In this document: positions 629-5,861 of the stretch, piece after piece
How positions within the stretch are numbered: position 1 is the stretch's first letter
Layout of the letters: every line of letters begins with the position of its first letter
Origin: a virus
Lineage: Duplodnaviria > Heunggongvirae > Uroviricota > Caudoviricetes
Strand: one strand, 5' to 3'
DNA: 5,861 nt
IMG/VR virus record: IMGVR_UViG_3300029711_000171
Span: 1-5,861 of that record
Notes under the pieces: generated by a model
Databases searched by the model: none
What the model was told of the DNA's origin: nothing
What the model saw: the letters and a program-made list of their open reading frames with translations, nothing else
Made by a program: the position numbers and the translations under genes

Positions 629-850
629 TTAACCTCCAGATTTCCGCGCATCTAAAGGCGCATTCTCATTTGGTGTGAACCGAATAGTTGTGCTGCTATT
701 GATTAATGCCCCGACACACAAGACTACGCACTCAGAGCAGATAGCAACTTCATCTTTTCCGCCTTTGGCGATGATTTTTTTTGCCTGCAGCTCGTTTGCG
801 CCACAAAACGAGCATGTGAAATAACGGTTCATTTGCGCTCTCTTACACAT
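629..850 (-). CDS. Small ClpX-type C4 zinc-finger (ClpX zinc-binding-domain-like) protein; possible alternative start at the internal Met (ATG complement of 830..832)
   Basis: The translation contains CSFCG-x19-ICSECVVLC, which closely matches the N-terminal zinc-binding domain of ClpX as I recall it ([31 protein letters not shown]). The internal Met has an AGAGAG purine-rich stretch upstream; the first ATG has no clear SD. Confidence 0.65.
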   Translation of the reverse strand: MCKRAQMNRYFTCSFCGANELQAKKIIAKGGKDEVAICSECVVLCVGALINSSTTIRFTPNENAPLDARKSGG

Positions 851-1768: not shown

Positions 1769-1978
1769 ATGAAAGCGTATTGGGACTCTTTAACCAAAGA
1801 ACAGCAGGGCGAGTTGGCCGGAAAAGTTGGCTCAACACCTGGCTACTTACGGCTGGTTTTCAATGGCTATAAAAAAGCCAGTTTTGTGCTGGCTAAAAAA
1901 CTTGAGCAATGCACGTCAGGTGCAATTACGAAATCTGACTTAAGACCGGATAAAGAAACCGATTATCGCTCATGGTGA
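1769..1978 (+). CDS. Cro/YdaS-like small HTH DNA-binding protein (lytic-side regulator)
   Basis: ATG at 1769 with GGAGG 10 nt upstream. The ORF track starts at 1745, but that upstream ATG lies inside the palindrome and has no SD. The translation has the small-HTH pattern and a GAITKSDLRPD motif like Cro/YdaS-family proteins. Divergent from the S24 repressor. Confidence 0.7.
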   Translation: MKAYWDSLTKEQQGELAGKVGSTPGYLRLVFNGYKKASFVLAKKLEQCTSGAITKSDLRPDKETDYRSW

Positions 1979-2353
1979 GACACTCTCCGTACTGGAGTTT
2001 GATGAACCCACCGGGAAGGATGTCCGCGAGCTGGGGTATCCCTACCAGATGAATCAGGATGAGTCCGTCAGACTTCTGGCGCATGTGGTGTCGAAATACA
2101 TTGTGCGGCTGGCGAAAGTGCCGCAAAGCTCTGTCGACCAGATGTCTCCGGCAGACCTGAATGCAGCGGCGTGGCTTGTGGCTGGTTTTTTCCTCCAGGC
2201 CTGACGGCTGAATACCTCACTGATCGCTTCTTTGACTGCGCCAGCTACTGGCGCATTAATCCCTTCGAATTGCTGAATATGCCGATCAGTGAAATTCCCT
2301 TGCTGGTCAGTCAGGCAAACAGGATAGAGCAGGAGAAACGCACACATGGCTGA
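1944..2353 (+). CDS. Tail assembly chaperone (lambda G/GT, P2 E/E+E' type) made by programmed -1 frameshift; apparently 5'-incomplete with no in-frame ATG/GTG/TTG before codon 36
   Basis: Zero-frame open reading 1944..2204 (stop TGA 2202..2204) and a -1 frame continuing to 2353, overlapping the tape measure start at 2346 by 8 nt. The slippery heptamer T TTT TTC (2186..2192) sits 10 nt before the zero-frame stop. Position immediately upstream of the tape measure gene is the conserved chaperone location. The first in-frame ATG is at 2049 and has no SD. Confidence 0.55.
2186..2192 (+). promoter_or_regulatory. Candidate -1 ribosomal frameshift slippery heptanucleotide T_TTT_TTC
   Basis: X XXY YYZ pattern in the zero frame (TTT 2187..2189, TTC 2190..2192). 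Slipping back 1 nt gives the FFPPGLTAEYL... extension that is open to 2353. Confidence 0.5.
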
Positions 2354-4178
2354 ATTTGAGCTTAAGGCGTTGATCACCGGTGTCGACAGGCTTTCTCCCG
2401 CGCTGTCGAAAATGCAAAAGAAAATCCGGGGATTTAAACGCCAGGCGGAAGAGGCGTCACAGGGTGGGCTGGCGCTTGGTGGCGGATTGGCAGCGGGGCT
2501 GACGCTTTCCCTGAAATCTTATGCCGATCAGGAAAACGCCGCTACCGGGCTGAAAGTCGCCATGATGGATGCGAACGGCGAGGTTGGAAAGAGCTTTCAG
2601 GACATCAATAAACTGGCTATTGGCCTGGGTAACCAGCTACCCGGTACAACGGCTGATTTCCAGAACATGATGCAGATGCTGGTGCGTCAGGGGATCCCGG
2701 CAGAAAACATTCTGGGTGGTGTGGGTAAAGCGACAGCTTATCTTGCGGTACAACTGAAAAAAACACCGGAAGCGGCTGCCGAGTTTGCCGCAAAGATGCA
2801 GGATGCTACCGGAACGGCCTCAGAAGACATGATGGGGCTGTTCGACACAATTCAGAAGGCGTTTTATCTGGGCGTTGACGACACCAACATGCTGTCATTC
2901 TTCACTAAAACCAGCTCTGTTCTGAAGATGGTGAATAAGGACGGTCTTCAGGCTGCACAGAGTCTTGCCCCCATCAGTGTCATGATGGATCAGATGGGGA
3001 TGAACGGGGAGTCGGCAGGTAATGCCCTGCGAAAAGTTATCCAGTCCGGATTAAGCGTTAAGAAAATCAGGGACGTCAATAAAATCATGGCCCGCCAGAA
3101 ACTCGGGGTACAGCTCGATTTTACTGATGGCAAAGGGAGTTTTGGCGGTCTTGATAACATGTTCGGGCAACTGGCAAAGCTGCGAAAACTGACCGACGTT
3201 AAGCGAACCGGTGTACTTAAGGCAATATTTGGTGATGATGCCGAAACCCTTCAGGTGGTCAATGCACTAATCGATAAAGGAAAGGATGGCTACGATCAGA
3301 TCCAGCAGAAGATGAATAAACAGGCCAGCCTGAATAAACGTGTTCAGGCACAGCTTGGTACGCTGTCCAACCTGTGGGAGGCAATGACAGGGACCGCAAC
3401 TAACGGCCTTGCGGCTATTGGCGGCGCATTTTCTGGTGACGCTAAAAATATCACGCAATGGCTGGGGGAGTTGGGGGAAAAATTCACGAAGTTTGCGGAT
3501 GAAAATCCCCGGGTTATTCGCGGCGTCGTCGGGCTTGCTGCCGGTCTTGCGATTCTGAAACTGGGATTGATGGGCGTGGGCAGTGCCATCAGTATTGTCA
3601 GCAGGATTATGTCGATGACGCCGATTGGCATGATTGCGACGGCGATTGCTCTGGCTGCGGGATTAATTATCACTAACTGGGATGTTGTCGGACCTTATTT
3701 TAAGAAGCTCTGGGAAACCATTGGTCCTTATTTTGAGGCTGGCTGGGAACTTCTGAAGAAGGTTTTTGCCTGGTCGCCGCTGGGGATGGTGATCAATAAC
3801 TGGGGACCGGTTGTTAAGTGGTTTCAGGATATGTGGGATAAGCTGAAGCCAATTATTGAGTGGTTTACCGACAGTTCCGGTGACACGGTCGATGCCATTA
3901 ACTCTGCGCAGTGGGGCGCGGGTGCTTATGATGCTTATGGGACGGGAATACCGGCGCGGGGATACACACCTTATCCGGCGGTAGATCTGGCTCAGTCAAA
4001 CAACGCCTCCGATGCCACAGGCCCGAATCCCTTCATGATTAACAAAGCTTCTGCGCCAAAAGTTGATGGTGAGATCAAGGTATCATTTATAAATATGCCA
4101 CCAGGTATGCGGGTTACGGAAACACGCTCCAGTGGCATTGATATAAATCACGATGTTGGCTATACCCGATTTTGGTAG
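2346..4178 (+). CDS. Phage tail tape measure protein (610 aa)
   Basis: ATG at 2346 with AGGAG (2331..2335) upstream. Long Ala/Gly/Gln/Met-rich, largely helical-looking N-terminal region, a hydrophobic membrane-like segment (VIRGVVGLAAGLAILKLGLMGVGSAISIV...IGMIATAIALAAGLII), then Trp-rich repeats (GPYFKKLWETIGPYFEAGWELL...NNWGPVVKWFQDMWDKL). Sits directly after the frameshifting chaperone. Confidence 0.88.
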   Translation: MAEFELKALITGVDRLSPALSKMQKKIRGFKRQAEEASQGGLALGGGLAAGLTLSLKSYADQENAATGLKVAMMDANGEVGKSFQDINKLAIGLGNQLPGTTADFQNMMQMLVRQGIPAENILGGVGKATAYLAVQLKKTPEAAAEFAAKMQDATGTASEDMMGLFDTIQKAFYLGVDDTNMLSFFTKTSSVLKMVNKDGLQAAQSLAPISVMMDQMGMNGESAGNALRKVIQSGLSVKKIRDVNKIMARQKLGVQLDFTDGKGSFGGLDNMFGQLAKLRKLTDVKRTGVLKAIFGDDAETLQVVNALIDKGKDGYDQIQQKMNKQASLNKRVQAQLGTLSNLWEAMTGTATNGLAAIGGAFSGDAKNITQWLGELGEKFTKFADENPRVIRGVVGLAAGLAILKLGLMGVGSAISIVSRIMSMTPIGMIATAIALAAGLIITNWDVVGPYFKKLWETIGPYFEAGWELLKKVFAWSPLGMVINNWGPVVKWFQDMWDKLKPIIEWFTDSSGDTVDAINSAQWGAGAYDAYGTGIPARGYTPYPAVDLAQSNNASDATGPNPFMINKASAPKVDGEIKVSFINMPPGMRVTETRSSGIDINHDVGYTRFW

Positions 4179-4206
4179 CCAGGATTCCCCTCACAGGTAT
4201 TGCTGG

Positions 4207-4234
4207 TTGTAAGTCATAAATAGAGTGATAGAAT
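4207..4234 (+). promoter_or_regulatory. Candidate sigma70 promoter for the moron gene
   Basis: -35 TTGTAA (4207..4212), 16-bp spacer, extended -10 TGaTAGAAT (4226..4234), about 35 bp upstream of the ATG at 4270. Confidence 0.35.
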
Positions 4235-4269
4235 TAATGCACATTTAGAAAAATGTTAATAGGCGAAAA

Positions 4270-4800
4270 ATGAAAGGCTATATCACAGCAAGTGTAATTC
4301 TTGGAGCAGCGGCTATTTTTTCATCTCTCATAATCTCTGGCAACATCTCCTTTAAAGATGAACATATTATTCAGTTATCTGGAGGAGCCATAAAACTTGG
4401 TGATGTTTATAAAGAAAATAAATTGATAAGTGCAAAGATTATTTTTCCAGATAATCAGGGTGAACAGATTCTTGTTGTCGACGGCAATCCTGAAAACTTT
4501 AAGGAGGATTTTCAGGAGAAATTAAATAAAGTAATAAAAACTTTAAATGCGTCAAAGAAAAAAGATGAAGAGAAAGTTAGCCTGGATAATTTAAGTGTTA
4601 TTGAAGAGTCTAAACTAGAGCTCGTTTCTGCGGTGCGTTACTCTGCTCAGTATGTTCCTATGTTTACTCTGACGCTGGACAAAAAAGAAATTACCATGCC
4701 TAAAAATACGGTAATATTTCCATTTGCCAGCGATGAAACAGCTAAGTATTTAAATGAACAACAGCAAAAGTATAAAGATTCGTTGTTTCTGACTCGCTAA
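4270..4800 (+). CDS. Hypothetical membrane-anchored or secreted protein (176 aa), moron inserted in the tail operon
   Basis: Clean ORF, markedly more AT-rich than the flanking tail genes by eye. N-terminal hydrophobic segment (SVILGAAAIFSSLIISG) without a lipobox cysteine; the rest is Lys/Glu/Asp-rich. Flanked by its own promoter candidate and a strong intrinsic terminator. Confidence 0.7.
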   Translation: MKGYITASVILGAAAIFSSLIISGNISFKDEHIIQLSGGAIKLGDVYKENKLISAKIIFPDNQGEQILVVDGNPENFKEDFQEKLNKVIKTLNASKKKDEEKVSLDNLSVIEESKLELVSAVRYSAQYVPMFTLTLDKKEITMPKNTVIFPFASDETAKYLNEQQQKYKDSLFLTR

Positions 4801-4818
4801 TTAATAAAATTCATTACA

Positions 4819-4851
4819 AGGCCACCTTCTAATAGGTGGCTTTTTTATTTT
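4819..4851 (+). terminator. Rho-independent terminator after the moron gene
   Basis: GCCACC (4821..4826), 8-nt loop, GGTGGC (4835..4840), then TTTTTTATTTT (4841..4851), about 20 nt after the stop codon at 4798..4800. Confidence 0.75.
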
Positions 4852-4861
4852 CGGAGTGTAT

Positions 4862-5861
4862 ATGACGTGGAAAGACAGGCTTCAGGATGCGTCATTTCGA
4901 GGTGTGCCGTTTAAGGTTGAAGAAGAAAGTGCGGGAACCGGCCGTCGTGTGGAAACACACGAATATCCGAACCGCGACAAACCCTATACCGAAGATCTGG
5001 GAAAAGTCACTTTCCGCCCGTCCATCACGGCTTATGTGGTGGGAGATGACTGCTTTGACCAGCGCGATCGCCTGATTGACGCGCTGAATAAACCCGGTCC
5101 CGGCACGCTTGTCCACCCGACATACGGTGAGTTGAAAGTCTGTGTTGACGGGGAAGTTCGGGTCAGCACATCGAAGAGTGAAGGGCGTATTGTCCGCTTT
5201 GACCTGAAGTTTGTCGAAGCGGGAGATCTCTCTTACCCCACATCAGGCGTGGCGACGGCGCAGACGCTGATGTCATCCTGTTCTGCACTGGATGACTGCA
5301 TCAGTGACAGCTTCAGCGGTTTCAGTATCGATGGCGTGGCGGATTTTGTGCAGAACGACGTTATCGGTAATGCCAGCACAATGCTTGGGTATGTTTCTGA
5401 TGCGATGAAAGTGGTGGATTCTGCCGTATCGGATGCCGCCAGGCTGTTGCAGGGTGATATCTCGGTACTTCTGCCGCCGCCATCGTCAGGCAAAAATTTC
5501 GTTGAGCAGGTGCAGAAAATGTGGCGTACCGGNNNNNNNNNNNNNNNNNNNNNNNNNNNNNNNNNNNCTTTCCGGTGTCAGCCTCGGCAGCGATCTGCAA
5601 CCGCGCGGCGTCTGGAAAACGGACAGTAAAACCACCGCCACGGCGACGCAGCAGCGTAACGTGGTTGCCAGCACCCTTCGTACGACCGCAATCAGCGAAG
5701 CGGCGTATGCCGTCATCCGATTGCCTGCGCCAACAACTTCCGCGGTGATGCAGAATGCCACAGTGGGGCAGGCAACAACACCTGCGCAGAGCACCGGTTG
5801 GCCTTCCGTCACGCATCCGGCACTGAACAATGCACCGGCGGTGAAAAACACGGTTGACCTG
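4862..5861 (+). CDS. Mu gpN-like DNA circulation protein (tail/baseplate component); 3' end beyond the window; interrupted by the N-run
   Basis: ATG at 4862 with GGAG (4853..4856) upstream. N-terminus MTWKDRLQDASFRGVPFKVEEE matches, from memory, the conserved N-terminal motif of the Mu N / DNA circulation protein family. An open frame resumes after the N-run in a different frame and stays open to 5861. Follows the tape measure as in Mu-type tail operons. Confidence 0.75.
5533..5567. other. Run of 35 N (assembly or scaffold gap)
   Basis: Literal n characters in the sequence, inside the gpN-like gene. Confidence 0.99.

What the first reader, a model, noticed from the sequence alone, without database searches (positions are those of the whole stretch)
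4179..4851. AT-rich moron with its own promoter and terminator inserted between tape measure and gpN
Mu-type tail operons place the N gene directly after the tape measure. Here a self-contained cassette intervenes: promoter candidate, 176-aa ORF, strong terminator, all visibly more AT-rich than the neighbours. The product has an N-terminal membrane anchor or signal and a charged, probably coiled-coil body, with no recognisable domain. Such cassettes commonly encode lysogenic-conversion functions (exclusion, immunity, virulence or anti-defence) expressed from the prophage.
Basis: partly seen in the sequence, partly recalled or inferred. Interest (0 to 1): 0.6.

Follow-up and report, generated by a model that had tools for sequence, protein, structure and literature searches.

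The report
Prophage tail-operon moron encoding membrane-anchored protein
A small, AT-rich, swappable gene cassette sits between two tail genes of a common E. coli prophage and encodes an uncharacterised inner-membrane-anchored periplasmic protein, most likely a host-protecting (phage-exclusion) factor; it is a good but unsurprising example of a phage "moron".

Summary
Window 4179-4851 is a 673-bp, 34% GC cassette between a tape-measure gene (51% GC) and the Mu-N-type DNA-circulation gene (54% GC) of an SfV/SfII-like E. coli prophage. Phages SfV, SfII and SfI lack it. About 1,090 of 5,426 complete E. coli genomes carry this junction. It is empty in roughly half of them. Otherwise it holds one of at least five unrelated low-GC cargos, and ORF176 is the commonest (about 175 genomes). 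One alternative cargo matches a PHROG annotated "superinfection exclusion Sie-like".

ORF176 is a real gene under purifying selection (dN/dS about 0.03-0.17). It belongs to an unnamed family of at least 77 clusters, with no Pfam, NCBIfam or PADLOC match. The protein has one N-in/C-out transmembrane anchor and a periplasmic alpha/beta domain (AlphaFold pLDDT 92). It is not a coiled coil and has no PDB fold relative.

Homologues occupy the same site in Leclercia and Edwardsiella prophages. One survives alone beside icd in Lelliottia, and distant ones sit in Pseudomonas integrative islands.

The terminator slot also exists at empty sites, and the promoter is only a candidate. The best reading is a moron whose product acts at the envelope, probably by excluding superinfecting phages. 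That function is inferred, not shown. Ordinary kind, uncharacterised family.

The parts
2346..4178 (+). Tail tape-measure gene (610 aa). It forms the left flank of the hotspot and its stop codon TAG lies at 4176-4178.
   Evidence: Pfam PhageMin_Tail, E = 1.7e-26. Annotated as tape measure in E. coli EC1515 and in phages SfV and SKA5.
4179..4851 (+). The exchangeable cassette (moron), 673 bp and 33.9% GC.
   Evidence: GC values. Absent in SfV. 99.3-99.9% identical between prophages whose flanks are 95-97% identical.
4207..4234 (+). Candidate sigma-70 promoter: -35 TTGTAA, 16-nt spacer, extended -10 TGaTAGAAT.
   Evidence: Consensus scan, 9 of 12 matches with TG, not above chance for the region. 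A TTGnnA hexamer is kept at the same aligned position in the Leclercia and Lelliottia copies. Function is inferred.
4270..4800 (+). ORF176 (WP_000679479.1, phrog_5485), a bitopic inner-membrane protein. A weak Shine-Dalgarno AGG lies at 4261-4263.
   Evidence: Family of at least 77 clusters. dN/dS 0.03-0.17. AlphaFold pLDDT 92.
4273..4338 (+). Codons 2-23: the single N-terminal transmembrane helix, a signal-anchor with the N-terminus in the cytoplasm.
   Evidence: Helix 2-23 in the model. 55 of 57 family members have one hydrophobic segment and none has a second. The N flank has net charge +1.9 and the C flank -0.6. Some members carry 45-117-aa extensions before the helix, which argues against a cleaved signal peptide.
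4351..4416 (+). Codons 28-49: the most conserved motif of the family (FKDEH..L.GG.(I/V)KLG.VY.E), a beta-hairpin directly after the membrane anchor.
   Evidence: G39, L43, G44 and E49 are invariant or nearly invariant across 57 sequences of 17-52% identity.
4366..4782 (+). Codons 33-171: the periplasmic alpha/beta domain (beta-beta-beta-beta-alpha-beta-beta-alpha).
4818..4851 (+). Intrinsic terminator: a 10-bp stem with a 6-nt loop (4818-4843) followed by a T-run.
   Evidence: Equivalent hairpins with different stems and the same T-run occur at the empty site and after the other + strand cargos.
4853..5861 (+). Right flank: GGAG (4853-4856) and the gpN/DNA-circulation gene starting at ATG 4862. 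It runs off the window and contains an N-run at 5533-5567.
   Evidence: Pfam DNA_circ_N, E = 9.5e-35. Annotated start in EC1515. The start context is conserved in all variants. N-run located.

Best explanation
Window 4179-4851 is a moron, an accessory cassette that occupies a recombination hotspot between the tape-measure gene and gpN of SfV/SfII-like (Mu-type tail) prophages. It is not part of the virion.

Its single gene encodes a 176-aa bitopic inner-membrane protein. A short cytoplasmic N-terminus is followed by one transmembrane anchor and a compact periplasmic alpha/beta domain. The most conserved motif of that domain sits against the outer face of the inner membrane.

The proposed mode of action is as follows. 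The gene is transcribed in the lysogen from its own weak promoter, and also by antiterminated late transcription during lytic growth. The protein sits in the inner membrane and interferes, from the periplasmic side, with the step in which an incoming phage tail tip or tape-measure conduit reaches and crosses the inner membrane. That is superinfection exclusion at DNA entry, in the manner of HK97 gp15, P22 SieA or lactococcal Sie2009.

Shown here: cassette status, hotspot, horizontal exchange, a real protein under purifying selection, and (in silico) topology and fold. Inferred: expression from the repressed prophage, and the exclusion function and its target.

I put about 0.9 on the moron/hotspot-cargo reading and about 0.4 on the exclusion mechanism. 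The figure below is for the whole statement.
For: Presence/absence and replacement at one site. SfV, SfII and SfI have none. E. coli genomes carry ORF176 (175), a secreted 164-aa protein (84), a TM-anchored OB-fold protein (75), a 225-aa lipoprotein (54), a bPH_1 protein (28), or nothing.

The cassette is more conserved than its flanks. It has low GC in every host.

Purifying selection acts on the gene. The family has at least 77 clusters of constant size and architecture.

N-in/C-out topology is supported. The fold is confident.

The family is not tied to tails. An orphan copy with its own promoter-like site and terminator survives beside icd in Lelliottia after loss of the prophage. Homologues of about 23% identity lie in accessory regions of Pseudomonas-type integrative islands.

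Guilt by location. Four of five alternative cargos are envelope proteins. The OB-fold cargo matches phrog_8545 'superinfection exclusion Sie-like' at E = 1.3e-49.

ORF176 evolves faster (41-59% identity) than neighbouring gpN (68-72%) between genera, as expected for a gene in an arms race.

Precedents exist for membrane proteins encoded by tail-operon morons or prophages that block DNA entry: HK97 gp15 (PMC3594210), and SieA, Tuc2009 and TP-J34 (PMC10883804).

Against: No expression data are available. The promoter match is at chance level for the region, and one Leclercia copy has no match at threshold.

The 'Sie-like' label of the neighbouring cargo type is an annotation, not a tested function.

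Envelope location fits other roles equally well, such as bacteriocin or T6SS-effector immunity, or stress tolerance.

AT-rich DNA in E. coli is often silenced by H-NS (general knowledge), so expression may be conditional.
Confidence: 0.4

Rival explanations
1. The cassette is a moron, but its product is an envelope lysogenic-conversion factor unrelated to phages. One possibility is an orphan immunity protein against a periplasm-acting bacteriocin or T6SS effector. Colicin M immunity protein, for example, is also anchored by an N-terminal helix and faces the periplasm (from my own knowledge). Another possibility is a factor for stress tolerance or colonisation.
For: The architecture and location evidence is the same as for the best explanation. 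The gene is retained as an orphan chromosomal gene in Lelliottia. Distant homologues lie in integrative islands beside other secreted or membrane proteins. Nothing ties the protein to phage components.
Against: No similarity to any immunity family was found. No toxin or effector gene lies nearby in any context examined. The only occupant of the site with a functional label is 'Sie-like'.
Confidence: 0.25
2. The product is a non-essential helper of the phage's own lytic cycle that is made from the late operon. It could be an inner-membrane factor that aids tail tip or tape-measure assembly or the phage's own DNA injection. It could instead prevent wasteful re-adsorption or injection of progeny into the lysing cell, or act as an i-spanin-like lysis accessory.
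For: The gene is on the same strand as the late tail operon and within it. In three genera it stays at exactly this site next to the tape-measure gene. Late antiterminated transcription would read through it (inference).
Against: Closely related functional phages lack it, and others carry unrelated genes, one of them on the opposite strand. Family members occur with no tail genes nearby. It is not a spanin: the periplasmic part is an alpha/beta domain rather than a coiled coil, and no lipoprotein partner ORF is present. The prophage already has a lysis cassette containing a DUF2570 protein and an Rz1-like LysC.
Confidence: 0.12
3. The cassette is functionless hitch-hiking DNA, or a decaying ORF that merely fills a permissive intergenic site.
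For: No function is known and no expression has been shown. The site clearly tolerates anything, including nothing.
Against: dN/dS is 0.03-0.17 with saturated synonymous sites. Length, transmembrane helix and motif are conserved across at least 57 sequences down to 17% identity. The predicted fold is confident. The ORF stays intact after loss of the surrounding prophage.
Confidence: 0.05

Closest known systems
HK97 gene 15 moron (gp15 superinfection-exclusion protein)
   Same: Both are single-gene cassettes of deviating GC content with their own transcription signals, lying inside the tail operon next to the tape-measure gene. Both encode a small protein that inserts into the inner membrane. 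HK97 gp15 blocks genome entry of incoming phages in a way that depends on their tail and tape-measure region (PMC3594210, PMC10883804).
   Different: There is no sequence relationship: PHROGs and Pfam show none. The gp15 cassette lies upstream of the tape-measure gene, between the chaperone and tape-measure genes. It is related to YebO and is much smaller. ORF176 lies downstream of the tape-measure gene, in a contractile-tail (Mu-type) module, and has a 140-residue folded periplasmic domain. No phenotype is known for ORF176.
P22 SieA and lactococcal/streptococcal Sie proteins (Sie2009, Ltp)
   Same: All are prophage-expressed membrane or surface-anchored proteins of about 140-170 aa that block DNA injection after adsorption. 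Escape mutations map to the ejection or tape-measure proteins (PMC10883804, PMC3952083).
   Different: SieA is predicted to have three transmembrane segments, and Ltp is a lipoprotein. ORF176 has a single anchor, shows no homology to either, and has an unrelated fold. Their genes lie in the early/lysogeny region, not in the tail operon.
phrog_8545 'superinfection exclusion Sie-like' OB-fold proteins (PF12869 tRNA_anti-like), e.g. WP_024250676.1
   Same: They occupy the same tape-measure/gpN site in sister E. coli prophages. They share the architecture (an N-terminal transmembrane anchor plus an extracytoplasmic domain of about 120 aa) and the low GC content.
   Different: The sequence and fold class are unrelated. 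The gene is on the opposite strand, and that variant lacks the + strand terminator.
'Lipoprotein' of Pseudomonas phage ventosus (UniProt A0A2H4P829)
   Same: It is the only significant structural match found: Foldseek E = 7e-7, probability 1.0, TM-score 0.66 on the target. It is also predicted to be tethered to the envelope.
   Different: Sequence identity is 16%. It is 144 aa long and, by its annotation, has a lipid anchor rather than a transmembrane helix. Its function is uncharacterised, so the match gives no functional transfer.

Membership tests
Moron (as described in PMC3594210, which cites Juhala et al. 2000) | An extra gene present in one genome and absent between the same two adjacent genes in close relatives | tested here: met
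   SfV, SfII, SfI and 689R6 lack it, with a 45-bp gap in SfV. About half of the sampled E. coli junctions are empty.
Moron (as described in PMC3594210, which cites Juhala et al. 2000) | Base composition different from the neighbouring genes | tested here: met
   33.9% GC against 51-54% in the flanks, and GC3 0.30 against 0.56. The same holds in Leclercia, Edwardsiella and IMG/VR copies.
Moron (as described in PMC3594210, which cites Juhala et al. 2000) | Its own promoter | tested here: inconclusive
   One extended -10 candidate lies at 4207-4234, but the scan is not above chance. The -35-like hexamer is positionally conserved in some homologues and no match reaches threshold in L004. The orphan copy in Lelliottia lies downstream of the icd terminator, so it needs its own promoter if it is expressed.
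Moron (as described in PMC3594210, which cites Juhala et al. 2000) | Its own terminator | tested here: met
   The hairpin at 4818-4843 plus T-run folds at -15.6 kcal/mol, z = -4.4. Caveat: the empty site and the other + strand cargos also have a hairpin with the same T-run.
Moron (as described in PMC3594210, which cites Juhala et al. 2000) | Expressed from the repressed prophage and beneficial to the host | not testable with these tools
   No transcriptome or phenotype data could be reached. A search for the accession in the paper library found nothing.
Characterised superinfection-exclusion families (Imm, Sp, SieA, SieB, Cor, Llp, Sie2009, Ltp, gp15, Sim) | Sequence or profile homology to a family member | tested here: not met
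   PHROGs at E <= 1 gives only phrog_5485 and phrog_34391, both of unknown function, plus one marginal hit to phrog_15137 'endonuclease' (E = 0.014), which is not an exclusion family. Pfam, NCBIfam and PADLOC give nothing. A PDB profile search gives nothing.
Characterised superinfection-exclusion families (Imm, Sp, SieA, SieB, Cor, Llp, Sie2009, Ltp, gp15, Sim) | Envelope location of the protein | tested here: met
   By prediction only: a single N-in/C-out transmembrane anchor in 55 of 57 members.
Characterised superinfection-exclusion families (Imm, Sp, SieA, SieB, Cor, Llp, Sie2009, Ltp, gp15, Sim) | Blocks infection after adsorption, at DNA entry | not testable with these tools
   This needs plating, adsorption and DNA-entry assays.
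i-spanin (Rz-type) | An N-terminal transmembrane anchor followed by a periplasmic coiled-coil, with an o-spanin lipoprotein gene embedded or adjacent, inside the lysis cassette | tested here: not met
   The anchor is present, but the periplasmic part is an alpha/beta domain. There is no embedded or adjacent lipoprotein ORF. The lysis cassette, with a DUF2570 protein and an Rz1-like LysC, lies elsewhere in the prophage.
Core Mu-type tail module gene | Conserved in all related tail operons | tested here: not met
   The gene is absent or replaced in most related operons. Family members also occur outside tail operons.

The most novel reading that the evidence does not exclude
ORF176 may found a previously unrecognised, widespread family of bitopic periplasmic proteins. 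The family has at least 77 clusters at 50% identity, spans gamma-proteobacterial prophages and integrative islands, and has no Pfam entry and no PDB fold relative. On this reading the family blocks genome delivery by contractile- or long-tailed phages at the outer face of the inner membrane. The tape-measure/gpN junction of SfV-like prophages would then be a dedicated hotspot that shuffles at least five unrelated envelope-acting exclusion genes.
Probability: 0.3. Interest if true: 0.6.

Novelty: new member of a known kind. Interest (0 to 1): 0.4.

Why it matters
SfV/SfII-like prophages are present in about a fifth of complete E. coli genomes, and they are the serotype-converting phages of Shigella.

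This analysis defines a precise cargo hotspot in their tail operon with at least five alternative low-GC genes, most of them envelope proteins. That gives a compact, testable set of candidate exclusion or conversion factors.

ORF176 is the commonest occupant. It represents an unnamed protein family with a confident predicted fold that has no solved relative. If it blocks phage entry, it would add a new family to the short list of mechanistically studied injection blockers in Gram-negative bacteria, and it would be relevant to phage-therapy host range in E. coli and Shigella.

If it does something else at the envelope, it is still a widespread lysogenic-conversion gene of unknown function.

Tried and rejected
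1. Structural tail gene. Rejected because the gene is absent or replaced in close relatives.

Rejected on the alpha/beta model and the lack of an o-spanin partner.

3. Cleaved signal peptide or lipoprotein. The protein has no cysteine and so no lipobox. Some members carry long cytoplasmic extensions before the helix. It is therefore an anchor.

5. Known defence systems. PADLOC is negative for ORF176 and for all alternative cargos.

6. Non-coding RNA in the cassette. Rfam gives only a sub-threshold 'Phe_leader' hit, which is the terminator.

7. Flanking repeats, att sites or IS ends at the cassette borders. None were found.

9. afdb50 Foldseek was unavailable.

10. The search for related loci with the diverse alignments failed for lack of a conserved stretch. 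The genome-contig scan with the close alignment returned only one locus.

11. tblastn against GenBank phages found no homologue.

12. Literature searches found nothing on this protein or hotspot.

Full report
**Setting.** The window is E. coli prophage DNA. Positions 1951-5861 are 97% identical to the tail region of Shigella/E. coli phages SfV, SfII, SfI and vB_EcoM-689R6. Positions 1-1952 match the cI/cro region of SfIV/PhiR29-type phages. The tape-measure gene (2346-4178, PhageMin_Tail) and the DNA-circulation gene (DNA_circ_N, true start ATG 4862) flank the finding. In a complete genome (EC1515) the same three genes lie in an intact SfV-like prophage next to ssrA.

**Checking the observation.**
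- The 176-codon ORF at 4270-4800 is there, and nothing of 40 aa or more lies on the opposite strand.
- The cassette 4179-4851 has 33.9% GC, against 51.3% and 53.6% for the flanks. GC3 is 0.30 against 0.56 and 0.57.
- The hairpin at 4818-4843 plus T-run is a good intrinsic terminator: -15.6 kcal/mol, z = -4.4.
- The promoter candidate, TTGTAA-16-TAGAAT with an upstream TG (4207-4234), is the only + strand match in the intergenic gap. The scan finds no more sites than shuffled sequence does, so it stays a candidate.

**It is an insertion at a hotspot.**
- SfV goes from the tape-measure stop to the gpN start in 45 bp.
- Phage SKA5 carries an unrelated 170-aa ORF at the same place.
- About 1,090 of 5,426 complete E. 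coli genomes carry this junction.
- Queries made of each cargo plus its flanks count 175 genomes with ORF176 and 84 with the SKA5-type secreted protein. A further 75 carry a transmembrane-anchored OB-fold protein on the opposite strand, 54 a 225-aa lipoprotein and 28 a bPH_1 protein.
- In an evenly spaced sample of the ranking, about half of the sites with both flanks were empty.
- All cargos have low GC (31-42%), and four of the five alternatives have a signal peptide, lipobox or transmembrane anchor.
- In two prophages the cassette is 99.3-99.9% identical to the window while the adjoining 480-550 bp are only 95.4-96.7% identical.
- No flanking repeats or mobile-element ends are present.

**The terminator is not private to the cassette.** The empty SfV site has its own hairpin plus T-run. 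Every + strand cargo is followed by a different stem but the same TTTTTTAT..GGAGTTTATATG context. The minus-strand OB-fold variant lacks it. A terminator between the tape-measure gene and gpN is thus a standing feature of this operon, presumably read through by antiterminated late transcription (inference). Cargos sit upstream of the shared T-run.

**The gene is real and belongs to a wider family.**
- ORF176 equals WP_000679479.1 and phrog_5485, with no Pfam, NCBIfam or PADLOC match.
- The word-indexed search found homologues of 50-59% identity, some of them named by their sources as Leclercia or Lelliottia.
- The exhaustive profile search found 77 cluster representatives at E < 1e-3, nearly all 166-203 aa.
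- A 57-sequence alignment (17-52% identity) keeps the N-terminal hydrophobic helix and the motif N.I...G.V.LG.VY.E just after it, and Y124 and L134 further along.
- None of the 57 members hits a Pfam family convincingly, and no PDB sequence matches.
- Nei-Gojobori estimates give dN/dS of 0.03-0.17. The least saturated pair has dS = 1.16 and dN/dS = 0.08.

**Architecture.**
- With the deep alignment, AlphaFold gives pLDDT 92.1 and pTM 0.77. The model has helix 2-23, a beta-hairpin at 33-42, strands 46-58 and 65-72, helix 74-93, strands 114-126 and 132-143, and helix 149-171. This is an alpha/beta domain, not a coiled coil.
- 55 of 57 members have exactly one strongly hydrophobic segment. The N-terminal flank has net charge +1.9 and the C-terminal flank -0.6, which points to N-in/C-out.
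- Members with 45-117 extra residues before the helix show that it is an anchor rather than a cleaved signal peptide.
- The only significant BFVD match is an uncharacterised 'lipoprotein' of Pseudomonas phage ventosus (E = 7e-7).

**Contexts elsewhere.**
- In Leclercia adecarboxylata, L. pneumoniae, Edwardsiella anguillarum and two IMG/VR contigs, the homologue (41-59% identity) sits at the same tape-measure/gpN site. It remains AT-rich (35-39% against 47-56%). It has diverged more than gpN, which is 68-72% identical.
- In Lelliottia amnigena an intact copy lies alone beside icd. About 100 bp of tape-measure 3' end lies upstream, with a promoter-like TTGTCA-17-GAAAAT, and its own terminator follows. 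No other phage gene lies within 8 kb.
- Homologues of about 23% identity in Pseudomonas-type genomes lie in accessory regions of small integrative islands (integrase or serine recombinase, DUF5906), next to a small resolvase and other secreted or membrane ORFs.
- The family is therefore not bound to tail modules and can persist without them.

**Function.** Nothing links the protein to a characterised family, so function is inferred from architecture and company. It is a prophage/island cargo gene whose product faces the periplasm from the inner membrane. It shares a hotspot with other envelope proteins, and one of these (the OB-fold cargo) matches phrog_8545, annotated 'superinfection exclusion Sie-like', at E = 1.3e-49.

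Precedents are HK97 gp15, a tail-operon moron whose inner-membrane product blocks genome entry in a tail/tape-measure-dependent way (PMC3594210), and P22 SieA, Tuc2009 Sie and TP-J34 Ltp (PMC10883804). I therefore favour exclusion at the DNA-entry step, at about 0.4. The alternatives are another envelope conversion function such as toxin immunity (0.25), a dispensable lytic-cycle helper (0.12), and no function (0.05).

**Verdict.** Three corrections apply: the terminator slot is shared with empty sites, the promoter is unproven, and the protein body is a folded alpha/beta domain. The kind of element is well known. The protein family is uncharacterised and structurally unmatched, and the hotspot is a useful find. 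Interest is moderate.

Noticed in passing
window 1940-1965 (junction at about 1951): The cI/cro region (1-1952, SfIV/PhiR29-like) is joined directly to the tail assembly gene and tape-measure region. The join cuts the last codons of cro and the first 16 nt of the tail assembly gene. No complete E. coli genome (0 of 5,426) and no IMG/VR contig contains this junction, so it is either a rare large deletion or an assembly chimera.
   Followed up: partly
window 5533-5567: A run of 35 N lies inside the gpN coding sequence, suggesting a scaffolded draft assembly.
   Followed up: no
window 629-850 (-): A 73-aa ORF in the immunity region matches the ClpX C4 zinc finger (PF06689, E = 1.4e-10). A free-standing ClpX-type zinc-finger protein next to cI is unusual and might interfere with ClpXP.
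   Followed up: no
window 1951-2353 (+): The tail assembly chaperone gene (annotated to end at about 2204) is overlapped by a second-frame ORF at 2171-2353 that ends 7 nt after the tape-measure start codon (2346), so the two overlap by 8 nt. This looks like the usual programmed-frameshift chaperone pair (P2 E/E' type).
   Followed up: no
L008 7850-8570 (Lelliottia amnigena, beside icd): An orphan, intact ORF176 homologue lies here with about 100 bp of tape-measure 3' end upstream and its own terminator. The rest of the prophage is gone. icd is a known lambdoid/e14 attachment site (from my own knowledge).
   Followed up: partly
L017 812-1258 (-), L018 953-1330, L019 877-1371, L020 810-1487: These are the alternative cargos of the same hotspot. 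They are a transmembrane-anchored tRNA_anti-like OB-fold protein (phrog_8545 'Sie-like') on the opposite strand, a bPH_1 protein, a secreted 164-aa protein (phrog_8976) and a 225-aa lipoprotein (phrog_1353). None has a PADLOC match.
   Followed up: partly
L012 5634-7534 and L016 5935-7531: Distant family members (about 23% identity) in Pseudomonas-type integrative islands always follow a divergently oriented small resolvase/invertase gene. They are preceded by a secreted 180-aa protein or a 66-aa two-transmembrane protein. Whether the resolvase controls expression by inversion was not examined.
   Followed up: no
L004 10013-11808 (also L005-L007): Leclercia prophages carry two extra ORFs (about 503 aa and 94 aa, no Pfam match) between gpN and the gpP-like baseplate gene. 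These ORFs are absent from the E. coli and L. pneumoniae relatives, so this may be a second cargo site in the same tail module.
   Followed up: no
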